Shown here in pieces: positions 1-7,052 of a stretch of 7,052 nt of DNA; position 1 is the stretch's first letter, and each line of letters begins with the position of its first letter. A program made the position numbers and the translations under genes. The stretch lies in IMG/VR virus record IMGVR_UViG_2778261417_000006; one strand, 5' to 3'. This DNA comes from a virus. Taxonomy: Duplodnaviria; Heunggongvirae; Uroviricota; Caudoviricetes. Below the pieces are notes generated by a model, which ran no database searches, was not told the DNA's origin, and saw nothing but the letters and a program-made list of their open reading frames with translations.

Positions 1-130
1 GAATCTGAGGCAGCACCTGGCACGGCTGGGACGGAAGTCGCTGTCGTTCTCAAAATCGGTGGAGCTGCATGACAAAGTCATCGGGCATTATCTGAACATA
101 AAACACTATCAGTAAGTTGGAGTCATTACC
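1..130 (+). mobile_element. IS1 right end, partial and window-truncated (3' end of insB plus terminal inverted repeat)
   Basis: Positions 2-115 translate to [37 protein letters not shown]-stop, the InsB C-terminus as I recall it. The element ends ...CTATCAGTAAGTTGGAGTCATTACC at 130, matching the IS1 terminal repeat. Bases 1-130 are the exact reverse complement of 6923-7052. Confidence 0.93.
2..115 (+). CDS. insB: IS1 transposase InsB, C-terminal fragment (gene continues upstream of the window)
   Basis: Open frame from the window edge to TAA at 113-115; the translation matches the InsB C-terminus from memory. Confidence 0.85.
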
Positions 131-747
131 GGGATCGCGTTCTTAATATCAATGAAACCGCTGATGTATGGTCTTATGCTTACGGTAATAATTTGCTAAC
201 TCTGTCATCAATATATAACCGAAGAATAATGGTTATCTGCCTGGTGTTTGGTTGCCGACAGCAGGAGGCGAGGCTATCCACCTGGGACGAATGGGATTTA
301 AAAAACTGGGTATGGACAGTCCCAAAAGAGCACAGCAAAAACAAGGAGGCTATAGTAAGGCCTGTTCCTGACGGAATAAAACAATGGATCGTTAATCTTT
401 ACGCAGAAACAAAAAATCGCGGTTATGTTGTCGGTTGTGCTTTGCAAAGGGCGACAATAACAGGGGCTGCAAACAGAATATGCAGGCGTCTTGGTCATGA
501 TACTAATGGCTTGTGGTGCATACATGATTTCAGGCGCACATTTTCCACTACGCTTAATGATATGGGGGCGGATCCTTATATTGTCGAACTTCTTTTAGGT
601 CATAAAGTGAAAGGGGTTGCTGGTGTTTACAATAAAAGCAGGCATATAAAGAAAAAACTTGAGGTGCTTAATATGTGGGTTAATTACCTTAATACGATAG
701 CAGGATTTAACAACAACGTTATCGAGCTTAATAAAGAGGTGGTGTGA
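131..747 (+). pseudogene. int: Tyrosine recombinase (P4-type phage integrase), C-terminal catalytic domain only; 5' part interrupted by IS1
   Basis: The frame of the 193..747 ORF stays open back across the IS1 junction at 130/131, with no native start. The translation carries catalytic-domain hallmarks: ARLSTWDEWDL...WTVPKEHSKNK, box II HDFRRTFSTTL, and LLGH...GVAGVY with the presumed catalytic Tyr. About 205 aa are present against roughly 400 expected. Confidence 0.88.
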
Positions 748-748
748 T

Positions 749-1006
749 ATGGCAATTTATTCTCTTGTTGATGAAAACGATTTGCGCACAATGAAGGACA
801 TTGATCGGTTCATTCGTGAAAAAGAGTGCATAGCACTTACCACGCTGGCAAACTCAACACGCTGGAAAATGGAGCAGGCAGGTAAATTCCCGCGACGTAT
901 CAAGATCGGTGAACGTGCTGCAGGGTATCGACTTTCAGAGGTTCAGGCATGGATCCGTGGTGAGTGGCATCCTGGATGGAAACCTGGAAAAACAAAACAG
1001 CAATAA
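749..1006 (+). CDS. alpA: AlpA-family phage transcriptional regulator / excisionase-like DNA-binding protein
   Basis: 85 aa. The ATG lies 1 nt after the int stop and has an AGAGG-type SD. The motif IALTTLANSTRWKMEQAGKFPRRIKIGERAAGYRLSEVQAWI fits the AlpA/Xis helix-turn-helix signature (GxFP...W...ev..W). Confidence 0.8.
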   Translation: MAIYSLVDENDLRTMKDIDRFIREKECIALTTLANSTRWKMEQAGKFPRRIKIGERAAGYRLSEVQAWIRGEWHPGWKPGKTKQQ

Positions 1007-1018
1007 CCAGTAAATAAT

Positions 1019-1042
1019 GCCCCTCATCACGAGGGGTTTTTT
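1019..1042 (+). terminator. Rho-independent terminator after alpA
   Basis: Stem CCCCTC (1020-1025), loop ATCAC, stem GAGGGG (1031-1036), then TTTTTT (1037-1042). Confidence 0.75.
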
Positions 1043-1062
1043 GTCTATAAGGTAAAAACGCG

Positions 1063-1641
1063 ATGAATAAAAATATTGCCGTGACGGGCAAGGGGTACGC
1101 TCGTCCAGTGAAAAAATTCTGCGATATTCGTGATCTCGTCGTTCTGCGCTTTGATAGTGTGAACGTTCGTGTGGTGTATCTGAACGGCGATCCGTGGTTT
1201 GTTGCAAAAGATGTTTGTGCTGCGCTGGAACTAACCAATTCGCGTACGGCGTTGCAGATGCTTGATGATGATGAAAAGGGAGTAAATTTAACTTACACCC
1301 CAGGAGGAAATCAGAATATGAGAATTATCTCTGAGTCAGGTTTCTACAAACTAATAGCCCGCAGCCGCAAAGCAACGACGCCTGGCACATTTGCTCATCG
1401 TTTCAGTAACTGGGTATTCAGAAATGTGATACCAGGTATCAGAAAAACGGGGACTTATGGTATCCCGTGGGGTGCATTACAGGATTTTTCCCGCCGTAAA
1501 GAGCAATATCAAATAAGTGCCAGCGAGAAGGGGAGGGAGCTACAGGCATGTAAGCGCAAAAAGCGTGAGCTGGAGGAAGAAGAAAAAACGCTGATACGTG
1601 AATATCAGCCTGAGTTTTACTTTGGTAACCGCATTCAGTGA
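1063..1641 (+). CDS. Bro-N domain protein (phage antirepressor-like) with charged C-terminal tail
   Basis: 192 aa. Residues about 35-140 (VRVVYLNGDPWFVAKDVCAALELTNSRTALQMLDDDEKGV...TPGGNQNMRIISESGFYKLIARSRKATTPGTFAHRFSNWVFRNVIPGIRKTGTY) match the Bro-N consensus closely. The C-terminus is K/R/E-rich and looks coiled-coil-like. Confidence 0.85.
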   Translation: MNKNIAVTGKGYARPVKKFCDIRDLVVLRFDSVNVRVVYLNGDPWFVAKDVCAALELTNSRTALQMLDDDEKGVNLTYTPGGNQNMRIISESGFYKLIARSRKATTPGTFAHRFSNWVFRNVIPGIRKTGTYGIPWGALQDFSRRKEQYQISASEKGRELQACKRKKRELEEEEKTLIREYQPEFYFGNRIQ

Positions 1642-1650
1642 CAAAACAAA

Positions 1651-1671
1651 GGCGACCGCAAAAGGGTCGCC
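1651..1671 (-). terminator. Hairpin with T-run on the minus strand; candidate terminator for the leftward unit, convergent with the Bro-N gene
   Basis: GGCGACC (1651-1657), loop GCAAAAG, GGTCGCC (1665-1671). The + strand A-rich tract just upstream (1641-1650) reads as a U-run on the minus strand. Confidence 0.5.
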
Positions 1672-1737
1672 AGTGGGAACAAGGGAAAACAAAAGCATCA
1701 CCAACAATGCCACATTTGCGGCTGGTGGGCAATGTGA

Positions 1738-1917
1738 TCAGTCAGATTTGGTTCGTTCCAAGGTTTGCAACGAGAGCTTTTTCCTGTGCTCTTTAAGGAA
1801 TTTCTCAAGAGCAAACGAACAAGGTGCGAATCTTTCTGATTCATGTTCATGCGCTATATTTTTGCGTCGTCTCTTACGAGTTGGTGATGGTGTTTTGGTT
1901 GATTCTGTGTCGCTCAT
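1738..1917 (-). CDS. Hypothetical small basic protein, 59 aa (absent from the supplied ORF track)
   Basis: Hand translation of the minus strand gives MSDTESTKTPSPTRKRRRKNIAHEHESERFAPCSFALEKFLKEHRKKLSLQTLERTKSD-stop. It sits 57 bp downstream of the 101-aa minus-strand gene, has an AGGA about 8 nt upstream, and the minus-oriented hairpin lies about 70 bp beyond its stop. Confidence 0.4.
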   Translation of the reverse strand: MSDTESTKTPSPTRKRRRKNIAHEHESERFAPCSFALEKFLKEHRKKLSLQTLERTKSD

Positions 1918-1974
1918 GGTGCTGTCCTGTAAAGCAATGCGCCTGCGTTCCTCAAACTATGGCGCTGATATTGG

Positions 1975-2280
1975 CTATTCATGCTCTTTGACCTTGCGTC
2001 GCTGGAGTTCTTCACGCGCGACGGTGACGAGTTGCCCGATCTCCTCGGCTGCTTTGATGCCGATTTGTTCGACCTTAGCCAGGGCATCCAGTGACGACAC
2101 AAGGGGATTTTCTCCGCTGCCTTCTGCTTGGCGGCGGGCTATTTCTCCGCGCATGGCGGTTACGATAAATCCGGCATTGCTTTCACCGTCCAGCTTAACG
2201 GATTCCATCCCTTGCATAACATCTAGTGGGACTCTGACAGTTGTCAGTTGTGATTTTGCGTTTTTGTTAGCCGTTGCCAT
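1975..2280 (-). CDS. Hypothetical 101-aa protein; candidate DNA-binding regulator of the element (possibly ribbon-helix-helix-like)
   Basis: AGGAG SD 8 nt upstream of the ATG. It is transcribed divergently from the rightward operon across a palindromic operator region. The N-terminal segment TTVRVPLDVMQGMESVKL is compatible with a beta-strand plus helix RHH fold, but the family is not recognised with certainty. Confidence 0.5.
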   Translation of the reverse strand: MATANKNAKSQLTTVRVPLDVMQGMESVKLDGESNAGFIVTAMRGEIARRQAEGSGENPLVSSLDALAKVEQIGIKAAEEIGQLVTVAREELQRRKVKEHE

Positions 2281-2301
2281 TTCTGAAACTCCTAATCATC
2301 G

Positions 2302-2379
2302 GTGTGTTTCAGTATACACAAAAAAAGAAATACAAAAAGCCTTGACGTGTGTTTCATGCGCTCATAACATGAAACACAC
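2302..2379. promoter_or_regulatory. Divergent promoter/operator region
   Basis: Perfect inverted repeat GTGTGTTTCATG (2347-2358) / CATGAAACACAC (2368-2379) with a 9-bp spacer. A third half-site GTGTGTTTCA sits at 2302-2311. Candidate + promoter: -35 TTGACG (2342-2347), 17 bp, -10 TAACAT (2365-2370). Candidate minus promoter: -10 TATACT (complement of 2311-2316). Confidence 0.6.
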
Positions 2380-2470
2380 CGAAAGGATTGTTGAAATACA
2401 AAGAGCAACGCCCCGCAGTGCTGGGAACACATACGGGGCGTCTAACCAACAACGTAAACTAGGAGCCGTT

Positions 2471-2668
2471 ATGGTTGCTGTAAATCATATACCACACCTT
2501 GTACACACACAAACGGCCTTTGTGTGGCGTTTTCTGGCACTGAGTGCCGGAGAATCTCAAATCATCCACGTAACCGCCTGGACGGAACGCGAAGCGCGTA
2601 GCCGTTGCCCGTCCGGTTGTGTTGCTGTATTCGCTGCAAAAATCCGCCAGGGAGTGAGTCATGCTTAA
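2471..2668 (+). CDS. Hypothetical protein, 65 aa; likely first gene of the rightward operon
   Basis: AGGAG SD 5 nt upstream of ATG 2471. Its stop overlaps the start of the next ORF by 8 nt. It is the 3' end of the long 1598..2668 stop-free frame in the ORF track. Confidence 0.45.
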   Translation: MVAVNHIPHLVHTQTAFVWRFLALSAGESQIIHVTAWTEREARSRCPSGCVAVFAAKIRQGVSHA

Positions 2669-2846
2669 AACCTTCCGTGTATTTGCCCGAGCTGTTAACC
2701 CAATAGGCCACACAATTGGTATCGCTCAGAATGTGAAGGCTGTTAATGTTCAGACGGCTATTGCTGCGGTGAGAAGCGAATCATCAGAATATGGCTTATC
2801 ACAAGTCATTATTTCAGCAGTGTATGAATTAAAAGAGGTGCATTAA
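2661..2846 (+). CDS. Hypothetical protein, 61 aa
   Basis: GGGAG SD; stop TAA overlaps the next ATG as TAATG (translational coupling). Confidence 0.5.
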   Translation: MLKTFRVFARAVNPIGHTIGIAQNVKAVNVQTAIAAVRSESSEYGLSQVIISAVYELKEVH

Positions 2847-3037
2847 TGCAGGAAATTACATTACACGAAGCCGCTGAACGTGCGCACCAGACAGAAATTA
2901 TTTGCCGCCTTCTTGAGGTATACCCGAACAAAATTACAGATGCTGATATATCCGCACTGGCGAGCCTACTGGCGCGTCTTTCGGGAAGTGTCGCTAGTTT
3001 TTTGATTGAGGAAGAAAGTAAGCTGGTGGGGGATTAA
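2846..3037 (+). CDS. Hypothetical acidic protein, 63 aa
   Basis: AGAGG SD; stop TAA is immediately followed by the next ATG (coupled). Confidence 0.5.
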   Translation: MQEITLHEAAERAHQTEIICRLLEVYPNKITDADISALASLLARLSGSVASFLIEEESKLVGD

Positions 3038-3259
3038 ATGAATACAGAACGGGAAGTCTTTTTTAAATTGTTAGCATGTGCAGAAAGTTCATTAACTTTA
3101 AATAATTCAGCAAAAGCAATATTAAATATGTGGCTTGATTGCATAAATGACAATGAAGATGCAAATATTGCTTATGGCCTGTTGTCACTTATTGATGAAT
3201 CAGCAGAAAAACTCAATGACGCAATAAATAGTGCCCTGCTATCAAATAAGTCGAGTTAA
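3038..3259 (+). CDS. Hypothetical acidic protein, 73 aa, encoded in a markedly AT-rich segment (candidate moron)
   Basis: GGGGGA SD 4 nt upstream. By eye this ORF is about one-third GC, well below the flanking genes. Confidence 0.5.
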   Translation: MNTEREVFFKLLACAESSLTLNNSAKAILNMWLDCINDNEDANIAYGLLSLIDESAEKLNDAINSALLSNKSS

Positions 3260-3276
3260 GTCGAGGAATAAATAAT

Positions 3277-3576
3277 ATGGAAATGAAAAATTCTGGCTTT
3301 ATTGCCAGCGGCCCCGCTCGACCTGAATTTATGAACGGCGATATTTACCGCGATAAATACGGCGGCACGGTAACGATTAAAGGCGTGGCAGAACGGCGCA
3401 TCACTTACCGCCGTGAGGGGTATAGCTATGACTGCGTGATGCCTGTTTATCAGTTCCGGCGTGATTTTTCCCTGGTATATGCCGCACCCCGCAGTAAGCC
3501 CATCAGCAGGGAAAAAGCGTGGGGAAATATCCAGAAAATGAAAACCATGATTAACGGATTCAGAGGTAAAAAATGA
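3277..3576 (+). CDS. Hypothetical protein, 99 aa; immediately upstream of and overlapping the primase-like gene
   Basis: GAGGA SD; ATGA start/stop overlap with the 584-aa ORF. Confidence 0.55.
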   Translation: MEMKNSGFIASGPARPEFMNGDIYRDKYGGTVTIKGVAERRITYRREGYSYDCVMPVYQFRRDFSLVYAAPRSKPISREKAWGNIQKMKTMINGFRGKK

Positions 3577-5327
3577 AACTGGCACCGAACGTAAAACAGC
3601 AGTCACGCGGCATAAAACACAAAGGAACAGAAGTAATTATTTTTGCGGGTAGTGATGCCTGGGCACACGCGAAACAATGGCAGGAACATGATGCGCGTAT
3701 GGCCGGAGATAATGAGCCTCCTGTGTGGCTTGGGGAGCAGCAGCTATCCGAACTGGATAATCTGCAAATTGTGCCGGAAGGCCGAAAATCAGCACGCATA
3801 TACAGGGCCGGATATCTTGCGCCTGTAATGATAAAGGCGATTGGTCAGAAGCTGGCGGCAGCAGGCGTACAGGATGCAAATTTTTATCCTGAGGGTATGC
3901 ACGGCCAGGAGGTGCAGAACTGGCGCGAATATCTGGCCCGTGAACGCCAGAATCTTTCTGATGGTCTGGTCATTGAGCTTCCGGTAAAGCAAAAGGCGCA
4001 ACTTTCGCAGATGGCGGACAGTGAGCGCGCGCAGTTGCTTGCCGATCGCTTTGATGGCGTTTGCGTACATCCTGAAAGTGAAATCGTTCACGTATGGCGC
4101 GGCGGGGTATGGTGTCCGGTCAGCACAATGGAACTTAGCCGCGAAATGGTGGCGATCTATTCAGAGCACAGGGCCACTTTCAGCAAGCGCGTAATCAATA
4201 ACGCCGTGGAAGCGTTAAAAGTTATTGCCGAACCAATGGGCGAGCCGTCTGGCGATTTGCTGCCGTTCGCCAATGGTGCGCTTGACCTGAAAACGGGGGA
4301 ATTTTCCCCGCACACGCCGGAGAACTGGATCACCACGCACAACGGCATTGAGTACACGCCACCAGCACCAGGGGAGAACATCCGCGATAACGCGCCAAAC
4401 TTTCATAAATGGCTTGAGCACGCAGCCGGAAAAGACCCGCGCAAGATGATGCGTATATGTGCCGCGCTGTACATGATTATGGCGAACCGGTACGACTGGC
4501 AGATGTTTATTGAGGCCACCGGAGACGGCGGGAGCGGTAAAAGTACATTCACACACATAGCCAGCCTTCTGGCAGGGAAACAGAACACGGTAAGCGCTGA
4601 AATGACATCGCTTGATGATGCTGGTGGACGTGCGCAGGTTGTCGGGAGTCGTCTTATCGTCCTGGCTGACCAGCCGAAATATACAGGCGAAGGAACGGGC
4701 ATCAAGAAAATCACAGGCGGCGACCCCGTGGAAATTAACCCGAAATATGAAAAGCGTTTCACGGCGGTAATCAGGGCGGTGGTGCTGGCGACCAACAACA
4801 ACCCGATGATATTCACCGAACGGGCCGGAGGTGTGGCACGTCGTCGCGTGATTTTCCGTTTCGACAATATCGTCAGTGAGGCCGAAAAAGACAGGGAGCT
4901 ACCGGAAAAGATTGCGGCTGAAATCCCCGTTATTATCCGCCGATTGCTGGCGAACTTTACCGACCCTGAGAAGGCACGGGCTTTACTACTGGAACAGCGT
5001 GACGGTGATGAAGCACTGGCAATAAAGCAACAGACGGATCCGGTTATTGAGTTTTGCCAGTTCCTGAATTTTCTGGAGGAAGCGCGCGGCCTGATGATGG
5101 GTGGCGGTGGTGATTCAGTGAAGTACACGACCAGGAACAGCCTTTACCGCGTCTATCTGGCGTTTATGGCATACGCGGGCAGGAGCAAACCGCTAAACGT
5201 GGCTGAGTTCAGCAAGGCCATGAAGCCAGCGGCGAAAGTTTACGGGCATGAATATATTACGCGAAAAGTTAAGGGAGTAACGCAGACCAACGCAATTACA
5301 ACAGACGATTGCGACGCGTTTTTATAA
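3573..5327 (+). CDS. Replication protein: P4-family primase C-terminal domain / D5-like SF3 helicase
   Basis: 584 aa. Walker A GDGGSGKST is encoded at 4521-4547. The block LIVLADQP...KKITGGDPVEINPKYEKRFTAVIRAVVLATNNNPMIFTERAGGVARRRVIFRF resembles the phage/plasmid primase P4-family C-terminal signature. GAGG SD 6 nt upstream. Confidence 0.82.
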   Translation: MKLAPNVKQQSRGIKHKGTEVIIFAGSDAWAHAKQWQEHDARMAGDNEPPVWLGEQQLSELDNLQIVPEGRKSARIYRAGYLAPVMIKAIGQKLAAAGVQDANFYPEGMHGQEVQNWREYLARERQNLSDGLVIELPVKQKAQLSQMADSERAQLLADRFDGVCVHPESEIVHVWRGGVWCPVSTMELSREMVAIYSEHRATFSKRVINNAVEALKVIAEPMGEPSGDLLPFANGALDLKTGEFSPHTPENWITTHNGIEYTPPAPGENIRDNAPNFHKWLEHAAGKDPRKMMRICAALYMIMANRYDWQMFIEATGDGGSGKSTFTHIASLLAGKQNTVSAEMTSLDDAGGRAQVVGSRLIVLADQPKYTGEGTGIKKITGGDPVEINPKYEKRFTAVIRAVVLATNNNPMIFTERAGGVARRRVIFRFDNIVSEAEKDRELPEKIAAEIPVIIRRLLANFTDPEKARALLLEQRDGDEALAIKQQTDPVIEFCQFLNFLEEARGLMMGGGGDSVKYTTRNSLYRVYLAFMAYAGRSKPLNVAEFSKAMKPAAKVYGHEYITRKVKGVTQTNAITTDDCDAFL

Positions 5328-5340
5328 TTTTTTGTAAAAG

Positions 5341-5564
5341 CCATCTACCCCATCTACCTGAACGAAATAAACGCATATTATTCAACATGATAAGTGGGTA
5401 TAGGGCTAGGTAGAAGGCTAATAAAAGCTCTCTACCTCTTCTACCTGATTTTATCAGTTTCAGGTAGCAGGGTAGACGGCAGGTAGAGGAGTCAAAAAAG
5501 CTATCTACCCGCTGAAAGCGGCGCCATTACTGACATGATGAGCATTCGGGTAGATGGGTAGAGG
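5341..5564. repeat. Iteron cluster; candidate origin of replication
   Basis: Eleven copies of the pentamer CTACC/GGTAG in 224 bp. Tandem CCATCTACC x2 at 5341-5358 is mirrored by GGGTAGATGGGTAGAGG at 5548-5564. Other copies: 5409-5414, 5431-5436, 5440-5445, 5463-5467, 5471-5475, 5482-5486, 5504-5509. An AT-rich core lies at 5359-5394. Confidence 0.65.
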
Positions 5565-5613
5565 GGGGGAGGCACAACTAAAAACTTTTTAAACGAGGGG
5601 GGGGTGAAAATAA

Positions 5614-5928
5614 ATGCGCATACATAAAAATCACTTAACAAACATGCCAGCCGAAAACATGAATCAGGGGCGACAAATGACCAAAATTCGCAGAGACAGA
5701 ACACAGGCAAAATATAAAGCGTTAGACATGACAGAGCTTTCCTTAAAGGTGGCAATCAAAGCGATAGACCACCACACACGGGCAGGATACGCGAAGGAAC
5801 ATCCCGACCTGATAAGCGCATTCATGACCACAGCAGCGGCAAACTTTGCCACGCTGACAGAACGGGAGATTGCCGAAGCGGAACAGGTGACAACCATCAA
5901 TGTTAAAACCGGAGAGCAGACAGCATGA
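5614..5928 (+). CDS. Hypothetical protein (104 aa from ATG 5614; alternative start at 5677 gives 83 aa)
   Basis: Its stop overlaps the SSB start (ATGA). The 5677 start has an AGGGG SD at 6-nt spacing; the 5614 start follows a G8 tract. Confidence 0.55.
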   Translation: MRIHKNHLTNMPAENMNQGRQMTKIRRDRTQAKYKALDMTELSLKVAIKAIDHHTRAGYAKEHPDLISAFMTTAAANFATLTEREIAEAEQVTTINVKTGEQTA

Positions 5929-6347
5929 CAGCACAGATAGCGGCTTACGGGCGGCTGGTGGCTGACCCGCAGTTAAAGACCACCAGCAAAGGGACACAAA
6001 TGGCGATGGCGAGTATGGCGGTTCCCCTGCCGTGCAGCCAGGCAGATGACGGAACGGCGACGATGTGGTTATCCGTCCTGGCGTTTGGCAGACAGGCCGA
6101 CGCACTGGCAAAACACCACAAAGGCGAACTGGTGAGCGTGGCGGGTAACATGCAGGTAAGCCAGTGGACAGGCCAGAACGGCGAAACGCGGCGGGGCTGG
6201 CAGGTTATCGCAGACAGCGTAATCAGTGCGCGAACGGCGCGACCGGGCGGCAAAAAAGGCCAGCAGGGGCAGGCCACTGACGCACTGAACAGGGCAAAAC
6301 AACAGTCGGGGAATGATGATCCGTACGGCGATAATATACCGTTTTAA
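5925..6347 (+). CDS. ssb: Single-stranded DNA-binding protein (SSB family)
   Basis: 140 aa. The OB-fold region aligns with E. coli SSB by eye (GRL.ADP...W..V.AFG..A......KG..V...G......W). The C-terminus ends ...DDPYGDNIPF, resembling the conserved SSB tail DDDIPF. Confidence 0.85.
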   Translation: MTAQIAAYGRLVADPQLKTTSKGTQMAMASMAVPLPCSQADDGTATMWLSVLAFGRQADALAKHHKGELVSVAGNMQVSQWTGQNGETRRGWQVIADSVISARTARPGGKKGQQGQATDALNRAKQQSGNDDPYGDNIPF

Positions 6348-6364
6348 ATTCTGCAAACAAAAAG

Positions 6365-6393
6365 ATGCCGGAAAAAAATAGATTTTCCGGCAT
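6365..6393. terminator. Perfect 11-bp-arm hairpin downstream of ssb
   Basis: ATGCCGGAAAA (6365-6375), 7-nt loop, TTTTCCGGCAT (6383-6393). The U-run is on the minus-strand side; termination on the + strand is plausible but weaker. Confidence 0.5.
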
Positions 6394-6564
6394 GCTACAT
6401 AAATCCCGACCAAAGGAAGTAAATACATTAACACGAATTATCAGCACTGAAGTTGTTACGGCATATTTTATACAACATTGCACTTGGTTGCATGTGTTCG
6501 CATAGCAGACATCGGTAATAGAATATATTCACAATTATTTGTAATGAATGTAAAGAGGATGAGT

Positions 6565-6927
6565 ATGGTTGATTTATATTCGCCTACACAGCTTGTGCAG
6601 GTGGCTAATGCTGAAGATGTGCAAAAAAAATTAAATGCGTTGTTTACCAGTTTGTTTTTCACTCGCTCGGTAATGTTTGAATCGAGAGACATTATTCTTG
6701 ATACGATCGACGATCCAAATATCCCGATCGCGGCGTTTTGCTCTCCTATGGTGGGCAGTAAAGTTTCACGAGATGAGGGATACGAATCAAAAACAATTCG
6801 TCCAGGTTATATGAAGCCGAAAAGCAGCATTGATCCAAATAAGTTAGCTGTGCGCCCTGCTGGTGTGTCACCTGAGCAATACAATGCTTTTGGGGCGCGT
6901 AATATTAAAGTTAAACAGGCGAGGTAA
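6565..6927 (+). pseudogene. Lambda gpE-like major capsid protein, N-terminal about 120 codons only; truncated by IS1
   Basis: The translation from 6565 (MVDLYSPTQLVQVANAEDVQKKLNALFTSLFFTRS...FCSPMVGSKVSRDEGYESKTIRPGYMKPK...) resembles the lambda E N-terminus as I recall it (LFLRLFFRES...YVSPIVSGEVIRSRGG...TPGYVKPK). AAGAGG SD 6 nt upstream. The stop TAA (6925-6927) is supplied by the IS1 terminal sequence GGTAATGA. An alternative start at 6559 (MSMVDLY...) has no SD spacing. Confidence 0.65.
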
Positions 6928-7052
6928 TGACTCCAACTTACTGATAGTGTTTTATGTTCAGATAATGCCCGATGACTTTGTCATGCAGCTCCACCGATTT
7001 TGAGAACGACAGCGACTTCCGTCCCAGCCGTGCCAGGTGCTGCCTCAGATTC
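6923..7052 (-). mobile_element. IS1 right end, partial and window-truncated, inverted relative to the copy at 1-130
   Basis: Exact reverse complement of 1-130; begins GGTAATGACTCCAACTTACTGATAG. Confidence 0.93.
6938..7051 (-). CDS. insB: IS1 transposase InsB, C-terminal fragment (gene continues beyond the window)
   Basis: Mirror image of 2-115; the stop is the complement of 6938-6940. Confidence 0.85.

What the first reader, a model, noticed from the sequence alone, without database searches (positions are those of the whole stretch)
5341..5564. Iteron-type candidate origin bracketed by inverted tandem repeats, immediately 3' of the primase/helicase gene
Eleven CTACC/GGTAG pentamers occur in 224 bp, against fewer than one expected by chance. 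A tandem CCATCTACC pair at one edge is mirrored by GGGTAGATGGGTAGAGG at the other, with an AT-rich core between them. An ori placed next to its initiator gene is typical of satellites and small replicons.
Basis: partly seen in the sequence, partly recalled or inferred. Interest (0 to 1): 0.6.

Follow-up and report, generated by a model that had tools for sequence, protein, structure and literature searches.

The report
Replication origin of an E. coli PICI

Summary
Eleven CTACC/GGTAG pentamers, ten of them TCTACC, lie at 5345-5561. Only two other copies occur in the 7 kb window, and no such cluster appeared in 1000 simulated sequences.

The window is part of an E. coli phage-inducible chromosomal island (PICI): int fragment, alpA, bro, DUF4222, pri-rep, the repeat cluster, ssb and capsid. 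Its 584-aa Pri-Rep is 98% identical to that of EcCICFT073. The region after the EcCICFT073 gene carries eleven TCTACC copies; eight keep their position and orientation. Fillol-Salom et al. 2018 described iteron origins downstream of pri in E. coli PICIs. Their primers show that the "delta-ori" plasmid lacks exactly this region.

The Pri-Rep C-terminus matches the solved origin-binding winged-helix domain of phage P4 alpha. Relatives in Serratia, Morganella, vB_KppS-Ant and P4 keep iteron clusters just downstream of the initiator gene but use TGTTCAC/T, and Scapp uses AAAGTGCA. The iteron class follows the C-terminal domain.

The likely mechanism is that Pri-Rep binds the iterons, melts the 73% AT tract at 5359-5395 and loads itself as an SF3 helicase. 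Binding and melting are inferred, not shown.

Novelty: already known. Noticed in passing: IS1 ends bracket the window, and the Pri-Rep N-terminal domain is only weakly Toprim-like.

The parts
3573..5327 (+). pri-rep gene (584 aa), the presumed initiator and replicative helicase. It has an N-terminal domain of about 150 aa, D5_N (residues 153-282), an SF3 P-loop helicase (about 295-460) and a C-terminal winged-helix domain.
   Evidence: ORF list. Pfam D5_N, DUF5906 and Pox_D5. TIGR01613 'phage/plasmid primase, P4 family'. PDB 7ola 'DNA primase' chain (797 aa), E 3.7e-15. 98% identical to EcCICFT073 Pri.
5034..5300 (+). Codons 488-576 of pri-rep: a homologue of the P4 alpha origin-binding winged-helix domain and the presumed iteron reader.
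   Evidence: PDB 1ka8 matches at E 7e-7 to 8e-6 over residues 488-576. This domain is 96-100% identical among TCTACC elements but only 29-36% identical to those of TGTTCAY elements.
5341..5564 (.). Iteron cluster, the origin of replication of the island.
   Evidence: homology with the EcCICFT073 ori.
5341..5358 (+). Iteron pair 1: tandem CCATCTACC x2, cores at 5344-5349 and 5353-5358.
   Evidence: Cores invariant in all 9 aligned relatives.
5359..5395 (.). AT-rich tract (73% AT), the candidate DNA-unwinding element. It lies between iteron pair 1 and the opposed copies at 5397-5414.
   Evidence: The equivalent tract is 79-89% AT in the CFT073, L009, Serratia and Morganella loci, and a 27-nt tract in the P4 crr unit is 74% AT.
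5396..5405 (-). Decayed iteron GGGTATAGGG, which reads GGGTAGAGGG in close relatives.
   Evidence: L004 and L008 have the intact copy.
5409..5414 (-). Iteron core (GGTAGA).
5431..5445 (+). Iteron pair 2, cores at 5431-5436 and 5440-5445.
   Evidence: Cores invariant in relatives.
5446..5462 (.). Second short AT-rich tract (76% AT).
5463..5487 (-). Three opposed iterons: 5463-5468 (GCTACC variant), 5471-5476 and 5482-5487.
5504..5509 (+). Single iteron core.
   Evidence: Kept as TCTACC in eight of the nine aligned loci; in L009 it has decayed to TCTACT.
5512..5532 (.). Conserved non-iteron block CTGAAAGCGGCGCCATTACTG. Function unknown.
   Evidence: Near-invariant across E. coli and Shigella relatives.
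5548..5564 (-). Terminal opposed iteron pair, cores at 5549-5554 and 5557-5562.
5581..5604 (.). Conserved AAAACTTTTTAAACGA block followed by a G-run, just before the ATG at 5614. It is possibly the origin boundary plus the ribosome-binding site of the next gene.
   Evidence: Invariant in the alignment. A similar A/T tract follows the last opposed pair in the Serratia and Morganella loci and in P4 crr.
5677..6347 (+). Downstream genes of the replication module: a small protein of unknown function (5677-5928, or from 5614) and an SSB homologue (5925-6347).
   Evidence: RefSeq annotation of the identical locus; Pfam SSB; TIGR00621; PHROGs.

Best explanation
Window 5341-5564 is the replication origin of an EcCICFT073-type phage-inducible chromosomal island (PICI) of E. 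coli. The proposed mechanism has five steps. (1) When the island is induced, Pri-Rep is made from the gene that ends 14 nt upstream. (2) Its C-terminal winged-helix domain binds the short iterons, which have a TCTACC core and the extended consensus (G/C)CCnTCTACC(C/T). (3) The iterons are arranged as opposed sets, two forward copies, an AT-rich tract, then reverse copies, and the pattern repeats. Protomers therefore assemble on both sides of the AT-rich tract at 5359-5395 and melt it. (4) The SF3 ATPase core closes into hexamers around the strands and acts as the replicative helicase without a separate loader. (5) The island's SSB and host polymerase functions complete replication, which yields concatemers for cos packaging by the helper phage. 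What is shown here is the repeat cluster, its conservation, its homology with an experimentally required ori region, the domain make-up of the initiator and the covariation of iteron with reader domain. Steps 2-4 (binding, melting and double-hexamer loading) are inferred from P4 alpha and the SaPI Rep proteins. The source of primers is open.
For: The cluster is far beyond chance. The identical locus in E. coli 20Y000092 has the gene order int-alpA-bro-...-DUF4222-pri-[cluster]-hyp-ssb-capsid-decoration-alpA-like-terS. Pri-Rep is 571/584 identical to EcCICFT073 Pri. The EcCICFT073 intergenic region also has 11 TCTACC cores, eight of them at positions and orientations matching the window and three inner copies that differ, although the spacers have diverged to about 74% identity. 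Core columns are invariant in 50 of 72 cases, against 80 of 220 for other columns. [quoted passage not shown] The published primers place the delta-ori truncation at L003 14000 and the end of the ori-plus clone at 14308, which brackets all 11 iterons at 14013-14234. Residues 488-576 match the crystal structure of the P4 alpha origin-binding domain, 1ka8. Relatives at 40-53% identity (Serratia L011, Morganella L012, vB_KppS-Ant and P4) keep an iteron cluster just downstream of the initiator gene; Serratia, Morganella and vB_KppS-Ant share the window's layout, and P4 crr resembles it only loosely, behind a terminator. They use TGTTCAC/T, and phage Scapp uses AAAGTGCA. C-terminal-domain similarity groups follow the iteron class. 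The island has only one such cluster. The SaPI precedent is six to twelve penta- or hexanucleotide iterons immediately downstream of rep, a central AT-rich region, a C-terminal winged-helix reader and a self-loading helicase (PMC9371898).
Against: No experiment has been done on this allele. The EcCICFT073 test deleted the whole 308-bp intergenic region rather than the iterons, and the paper says only that colony numbers were significantly reduced. I could not see Fig. 2a of that paper, so I cannot confirm that the authors' drawn iterons are TCTACC. Binding of this Pri-Rep to TCTACC has not been shown in anything I could read. The conservation statistics are not phylogenetically independent. 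One iteron copy is decayed and one is a GCTACC variant. In the source genome the island fragment is bracketed by IS1 ends and int is truncated at the left-hand IS1 end, so this copy may no longer complete a satellite life cycle. No catalytic primase domain could be identified in the protein.
Confidence: 0.9

Rival explanations
1. The cluster is a crr-like cis-acting enhancer that binds the initiator, as P4 crr does, while unwinding and priming actually start at another site.
For: In P4 the iteron array downstream of alpha, just beyond its terminator, is crr (4291-4590). The annotated ori lies 4.5 kb away. The window cluster therefore sits in the crr position rather than the P4 ori position.
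Against: There is no second TCTACC cluster anywhere in the island of L001 or in EcCICFT073. Only isolated single copies occur. The pri gene plus this intergenic region sufficed for plasmid maintenance in EcCICFT073, so any second site would have to lie inside pri.
Confidence: 0.05
2. The repeats are operator or activator sites for a transcription factor, for example AlpA or the second AlpA-like protein, that controls the downstream ssb-capsid-terS genes.
For: The cluster lies in a 349-bp intergenic gap upstream of co-oriented genes. PICI expression is AlpA-dependent (PMC6092414).
Against: No sigma-70-like promoter or terminator was found in 5250-5750. TCTACC is absent from the alpA and int region, where AlpA is said to act. 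The motif class tracks the C-terminal domain of Pri-Rep, not any regulator. A dual role is not excluded.
Confidence: 0.03
3. The cluster is a packaging (cos or pac) or recombination (att arm) site.
For: Terminase and integrase sites are also arrays of short repeats.
Against: An exact lambda-type cosN (GGGCGGCGACCT) lies elsewhere in the island, at L001 15109 just upstream of terS, and in the helper prophage at L001 2343. The cluster lies about 5.8 kb from the island's int end, whereas in P4 the att arm repeats flank the attP core next to int.
Confidence: 0.01
4. The repeats arose by chance or slippage and have no function.
For: None beyond the short length of the motif.
Against: 0 of 1000 simulations reached the observed cluster. 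Most iteron positions and orientations are kept across diverged relatives, and the layout is kept even when the iteron sequence differs.
Confidence: 0.01

Closest known systems
Replication origin of the Gram-negative PICI EcCICFT073 (Fillol-Salom et al. 2018, ISME J, PMC6092414)
   Same: Initiator 98% identical. Same position right after pri. Same TCTACC core and same number of copies (11); eight copies keep their order and orientation. Same AT-rich tract after the first pair, same conserved non-iteron blocks, and same downstream hyp-ssb genes.
   Different: Spacers and iteron flanks have diverged: CCATCTACC here, CTGTCTACC there, about 74% identity over the region. The inner part has a different mix of copies: two reverse then two forward here, one reverse then three forward there. 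The window has about 60 extra bases before the next gene. This allele has not been tested.
Phage P4 alpha protein with its type-1 iterons in crr and ori
   Same: The initiator shares the D5_N-SF3-winged-helix part (40% identity over residues 141-573) and a homologous origin-binding domain (1ka8). An iteron array lies downstream of the initiator gene. Adjacent iterons are 8-11 bp apart, sets are opposed, and an A/T tract follows the last pair.
   Different: The iteron is TGTTCACC, not TCTACC. P4 needs two separated cis sites (ori and crr), whereas this island has one cluster. P4 alpha is 777 aa with a different, longer N-terminal primase region. The reader domain is only about 30% identical.
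SaPI origins and Rep/PriRep self-loading helicases of Staphylococcus aureus (PMC9371898 and the work it cites)
   Same: Penta- or hexanucleotide iterons, 6-12 copies, immediately downstream of rep. A central AT-rich region with opposed iterons on each side. A C-terminal winged-helix reader and no separate loader. The ATPase core matches PDB 7ola (a 797-aa 'DNA primase' chain) at E 3.7e-15.
   Different: Only distant sequence similarity, different iteron sequences and a different host phylum.
Helper-embedded PICIs (Barth et al. 2023, PMC10111431)
   Same: The 100%-identical copy in E. coli 20Y000092 splits the portal gene of a lambdoid prophage and is co-oriented with it. This matches the B:Phage_portal_2 class of sites. 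That paper also notes a primase and an ori downstream of pri.
   Different: That work does not dissect the ori. Here the window is additionally bracketed by IS1 ends.
Classical plasmid iteron origins (Rep_3/RepA, pi and TrfA types)
   Same: Repeated initiator-binding sites next to an AT-rich tract and next to the initiator gene.
   Different: Those iterons are about 17-22 bp direct repeats read by Rep_3-type proteins, with conserved DnaA boxes and host DnaB loading. Here the core is 6 bp in both orientations, the initiator is itself an SF3 helicase, and no conserved DnaA box is present. The plasmid features are stated from general knowledge.

Membership tests
Gram-negative PICI (EcCICFT073-type) replication origin | Lies immediately downstream of the pri (pri-rep) gene | tested here: met
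   The stop codon ends at 5327 and the first iteron core is at 5344. The relation is the same in L003.
Gram-negative PICI (EcCICFT073-type) replication origin | Sets of short iterons in opposed orientation flanking an AT-rich region | tested here: met
   Two forward copies (5344, 5353), a 73% AT tract (5359-5395), then reverse copies (5397 decayed, 5409). A second unit runs 5431-5487.
Gram-negative PICI (EcCICFT073-type) replication origin | Sequence homology with the experimentally delimited EcCICFT073 ori | tested here: met
   Both loci have 11 TCTACC cores, eight of them in matching positions and orientations, and shared conserved blocks. The delta-ori deletion spans L003 14001-14308.
Gram-negative PICI (EcCICFT073-type) replication origin | Sits in a PICI: int, alpA, pri, unidirectional genes, helper cos site, about 10-20 kb | tested here: met
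   Annotation of the identical locus in L001: about 10.7 kb between the two portal-gene fragments, with cosN at 15109.
Gram-negative PICI (EcCICFT073-type) replication origin | Supports Pri-dependent autonomous replication | not testable with these tools
   Shown only for EcCICFT073 (PMC6092414). This allele has not been tested.
P4 alpha / type-1 iteron replication system | Initiator with a P4-type C-terminal origin-binding winged-helix domain and an SF3 helicase core | tested here: met
   1ka8 at E 7e-7. tblastn to P4 alpha gives 40% identity over residues 141-573. TIGR01613.
P4 alpha / type-1 iteron replication system | Iteron TGTTCACC | tested here: not met
   The core here is TCTACC. The P4 type-1 repeat sites and the GTTCAC cores within them are shown.
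P4 alpha / type-1 iteron replication system | Bipartite cis requirement: ori plus a distant crr | tested here: not met
   Only one cluster in the island. P4 has two, 4.5 kb apart.
P4 alpha / type-1 iteron replication system | N-terminal DnaG-like primase domain with catalytic acidic residues | tested here: inconclusive
   [not shown]
SaPI-type ori | 6-12 penta- or hexanucleotide iterons just downstream of rep, a central AT-rich region, and at least two opposed iterons on each side | tested here: met
   compared with the description in PMC9371898. This is an architectural match only and not evidence of common descent of the DNA.
Classical plasmid iteron origin (Rep_3 type) | Rep_3-type initiator, 17-22 bp direct iterons and DnaA boxes | tested here: not met
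   No Rep_3 domain. The core is 6 bp and occurs in both orientations. A DnaA-box-like GTGGATAAA is present in the CFT073 type but not in the window.

The most novel reading that the evidence does not exclude
The TCTACC cluster is the island's only cis replication element, so it merges what P4 splits into ori and crr. The iteron and its winged-helix reader have been exchanged together on a conserved origin scaffold: TCTACC, TGTTCAC/T and AAAGTGCA classes at similar positions. This would create orthogonal replication-specificity groups that let several satellites share one cell or one helper without cross-initiation; up to 3 copies of this ori type occur per E. coli genome. A further possibility is that the so-called primase domain is a catalytically dead Toprim-like module, so priming would be outsourced to the host.
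Probability: 0.4. Interest if true: 0.35.

Novelty: already known. Interest (0 to 1): 0.15.

Why it matters
The finding shows that a reader working from sequence alone can recognise a satellite replication origin. Biologically it adds little. This origin type, its position and its dependence on the neighbouring pri gene were published for the near-identical EcCICFT073 island in 2018. The modest added value is comparative. The same origin layout recurs directly after the initiator gene in three distant relatives, with a looser version in P4 crr and phage Scapp, and it appears with three different iteron sequences. The iteron class follows the initiator's C-terminal domain. This gives a concrete, testable prediction of which domain reads the DNA. 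It also offers a set of natural specificity variants for building orthogonal satellite replicons or studying satellite incompatibility.

Tried and rejected
- **Rfam:** a scan of the whole window at E up to 0.1 found nothing, so no P4-type CI/seqA immunity RNA was detected here.
- **Promoters and terminators:** the scan of 5250-5750 found nothing.
- **cos site:** no cosN lies in the window. The only near match has 2 mismatches and lies inside pri. The island's cosN is outside the window.
- **Genome-contig scan with Pri-Rep:** this returned only 3 loci. They were still useful.
- **Global MAFFT alignment of the origins:** it mis-registers the inner iterons between the window type and the CFT073 type, because copy number and orientation differ there. 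The core versus non-core Fisher tests are therefore descriptive only.
- **First cluster null:** it was inflated by overlapping homopolymer k-mers. I replaced it with a non-overlapping count.
- **Sequence searches of the N-terminal 152 aa:** Pfam at E up to 10 and PDB at E up to 10 both found nothing.
- **Pasteurella Pmp7:** no clear iteron cluster lies in the 170 bp between its primase and integrase genes, so it was not used.
- **Fig. 2a of PMC6092414:** the figure is not held, so I could not check the iteron sequences the authors drew. I used their primers instead.

Full report
**1. The observation**

Window 5341-5564 contains eleven CTACC/GGTAG pentamers. Five are on the + strand (5345, 5354, 5432, 5441, 5505) and six on the - strand (5409, 5463, 5471, 5482, 5549, 5557). 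The rest of the 7,052-base window has two copies.

Ten of the eleven extend to TCTACC, and those ten are the only TCTACC copies in the window. None of 200 shuffles reached ten.

I therefore asked how large the biggest non-overlapping cluster of any 5-mer or 6-mer is in any 224-bp span of simulated sequence. The null was 5.8 +/- 0.65 (maximum 9) for 5-mers and 3.9 +/- 0.45 (maximum 6) for 6-mers. The observed values are 11 and 10, reached 0/1000 times each.

The tandem CCATCTACC pair is at 5341-5358, and its mirror GGGTAGATGGGTAGAGG is at 5548-5564. The copies share a wider consensus, about (G/C)CCnTCTACC(C/T).

The "AT-rich core" needs qualifying. The whole span is 55% AT. What exists are two short AT-rich tracts, 5359-5395 (73% AT) and 5446-5462 (76% AT), set among further iterons. 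Reading left to right the layout is:

- two forward copies;
- the first AT tract;
- two reverse copies, one of them decayed (GGGTATAGGG at 5396-5405);
- two forward copies;
- the second AT tract;
- three reverse copies;
- one forward copy;
- a conserved non-iteron block;
- two reverse copies.

**2. What the window is**

The ORFs encode the following:

- the C-terminal part of a tyrosine integrase;
- AlpA;
- a Bro-N protein;
- a DUF4222 protein;
- a 584-aa D5_N/DUF5906/Pox_D5 protein (3573-5327);
- a small protein of unknown function;
- an SSB;
- the start of a lambda-E-type capsid protein.

Window 131-6922 is 100% identical to E. coli 20Y000092. There the element is a 10.7-kb island that splits the portal gene of a lambdoid prophage. 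Beyond the window the island continues with capsid, decoration, a second AlpA-like gene, an exact lambda-type cosN and terS.

This is a Gram-negative phage-inducible chromosomal island (PICI) in the helper-embedded configuration described by Barth et al. 2023 (PMC10111431).

The ori region is present in 414 of 5,426 complete E. coli genomes. All 437 places are chromosomal and none is on a plasmid.

**3. Link to an experimentally tested origin**

I located EcCICFT073 in the CFT073 chromosome. Its Pri protein is also 584 aa and is 571/584 identical to the window's protein.

The 288-bp gap after that gene carries eleven TCTACC cores. Eight of them keep the window's position and orientation; three inner copies differ. 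The surrounding bases have diverged to about 74% identity.

I aligned nine E. coli and Shigella loci. Core columns were invariant in 50 of 72 cases, against 80 of 220 for other columns. This comparison is descriptive, because the sequences are related and the inner part aligns poorly. The window type and the CFT073 type differ there in copy number and orientation, which indicates iteron turnover.

Fillol-Salom et al. 2018 (PMC6092414) state that E. coli PICI origins lie downstream of pri. [quoted passage not shown] They also report that a thermosensitive plasmid carrying EcCICFT073 pri-ori is maintained at 44 degrees only with intact pri, and that deleting ori significantly reduces colony numbers.

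Their primers map as follows:

- The delta-ori clone ends at L003 14000, four bases after the pri stop codon.
- The ori-plus clone ends at 14308.
- The fragment removed therefore contains all eleven iterons (14013-14234).

Only one other TCTACC occurs in that island, and none occurs elsewhere in the L001 island.

**4. Who reads the iterons**

Residues 488-576 of Pri-Rep match PDB 1ka8 at E about 1e-6. The deposit is named 'putative P4-specific DNA primase'; from the literature I take it to be the origin-binding winged-helix domain of P4 alpha. Residues 190-432 match PDB 7ola (a 797-aa 'DNA primase' chain, probably the SaPI5 PriRep).

The P4 record annotates type-1 repeats in ori and in crr. 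crr lies downstream of alpha, just beyond its terminator.

Relatives of Pri-Rep keep an iteron array just downstream of the initiator gene. In the Serratia, Morganella and vB_KppS-Ant loci it follows the stop codon with almost the same order, spacing and orientation as here. In Serratia, Morganella and P4 crr an A/T tract follows the last opposed pair. The iteron itself differs:

| Element | Identity to the window's Pri-Rep | Iteron |
|---|---|---|
| Serratia aquatilis locus | 53% | TGTTCAC |
| Morganella morganii locus | 52% | TGTTCAT |
| vB_KppS-Ant | 41% | GTTCACC |
| P4 | 40% | TGTTCACC |
| Phage Scapp | 38% | AAAGTGCA |

The C-terminal domain follows these classes:

- It is 96-100% identical among TCTACC elements, even where the N-terminal domain is only 68% identical.
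- It is 44-50% identical among the TGTTCAY elements.
- It is 29-36% identical between the TCTACC and TGTTCAY classes, although their SF3 cores are 52-73% identical.
- The Scapp domain is 17-24% identical to all the others.

This covariation is the best in-silico evidence that the winged-helix domain is the iteron reader.

**5. Mechanism**

By analogy with P4 alpha and the SaPI Reps (PMC9371898), the likely sequence of events is as follows. Pri-Rep binds the opposed iteron sets. It melts the AT-rich tract between them. It then assembles as SF3 hexamers that serve as the replicative helicase without a loader. The island's SSB coats the strands.

Binding, melting and loading are inferences. The homology, architecture and covariation are shown.

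**6. Rivals**

- **A crr-like enhancer with initiation elsewhere.** This is unlikely, because there is no second cluster and pri plus this region sufficed in EcCICFT073.
- **A transcriptional operator array.** This is unlikely as the main role. No promoter was detected, the motif is absent from other control regions, and it tracks Pri-Rep rather than a regulator.
- **A cos or att role.** This is excluded by the location of cosN and by the about 5.8 kb between the cluster and the island's int end.
- **Chance.** This is excluded.

**7. Verdict**

The feature belongs to a published kind: the ori of EcCICFT073-type PICIs, in a helper-embedded island. Novelty is "already known" and interest is low.

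The comparative points have modest value as testable predictions. These are the single cluster where P4 has ori plus crr, the three iteron classes on one scaffold, and the covariation with the reader domain.

Noticed in passing
window 1-130 and 6923-7052: The two ends of the window are 100% complementary to each other and match IS1 ends (IS1 family transposase in thousands of plasmid records). The PICI sequence (131-6922) is therefore bracketed by inverted IS1 copies. One interrupts int and the other interrupts the capsid gene. This may be two simple IS1 insertions, a composite unit carrying alpA-pri-ori-ssb, or a short-read contig that ends in repeats.
   Followed up: partly
L001 5177-6010 and 16896-17678 (identical island in E. 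coli 20Y000092): The island splits the portal gene of a lambdoid prophage and is co-oriented with it. This is a helper-embedded PICI of the kind described by Barth et al. 2023. The helper cosN is at L001 2343 and the island's own cosN at 15109.
   Followed up: partly
[not shown]
   Followed up: partly
window 5512-5532 and 5581-5604: Two non-iteron blocks inside the origin region are nearly invariant across diverged relatives: CTGAAAGCGGCGCCATTACTG, and AAAACTTTTTAAACGA followed by a G-run. A comparable A/T tract follows the last opposed iteron pair in the Serratia and Morganella loci and in P4 crr. Their role is unknown; the second may include the ribosome-binding site for the ATG at 5614.
   Followed up: partly
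window 5614-5928 versus 5677-5928: The start of the gene after the origin is ambiguous. RefSeq calls 5677 (83 aa, matching the length of PHROG 1231). In EcCICFT073 the annotated start corresponds to the upstream ATG at 5614, which sits behind the conserved G-run.
   Followed up: no
window 1598-2668 (+), 1975-2280 (-), 2471-2668 (+): The long 356-aa GTG ORF has no family hit and is not annotated in RefSeq. RefSeq instead calls a YlcI/YnfO gene on the minus strand and an Icd-like gene on the plus strand. No P4-type immunity RNA (C4/isrK) was detected by Rfam anywhere in the window.
   Followed up: partly
L016 (Serratia phage Scapp) 2750-3050; L014 (vB_KppS-Ant) 2985-3270: Both elements carry iteron clusters just downstream of their alpha-like primase genes. 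Scapp uses a third repeat, AAAGTGCA. vB_KppS-Ant uses the P4-type GTTCACC in almost the same layout as the window.
   Followed up: partly
L009 (E. coli VL40) 1-2528: In this relative the primase gene is broken by an IS110-family element, and several origin iterons have decayed to GTCTACA, GTCTACT and GAGTAGAC. This is consistent with relaxed selection once the initiator is lost.
   Followed up: no
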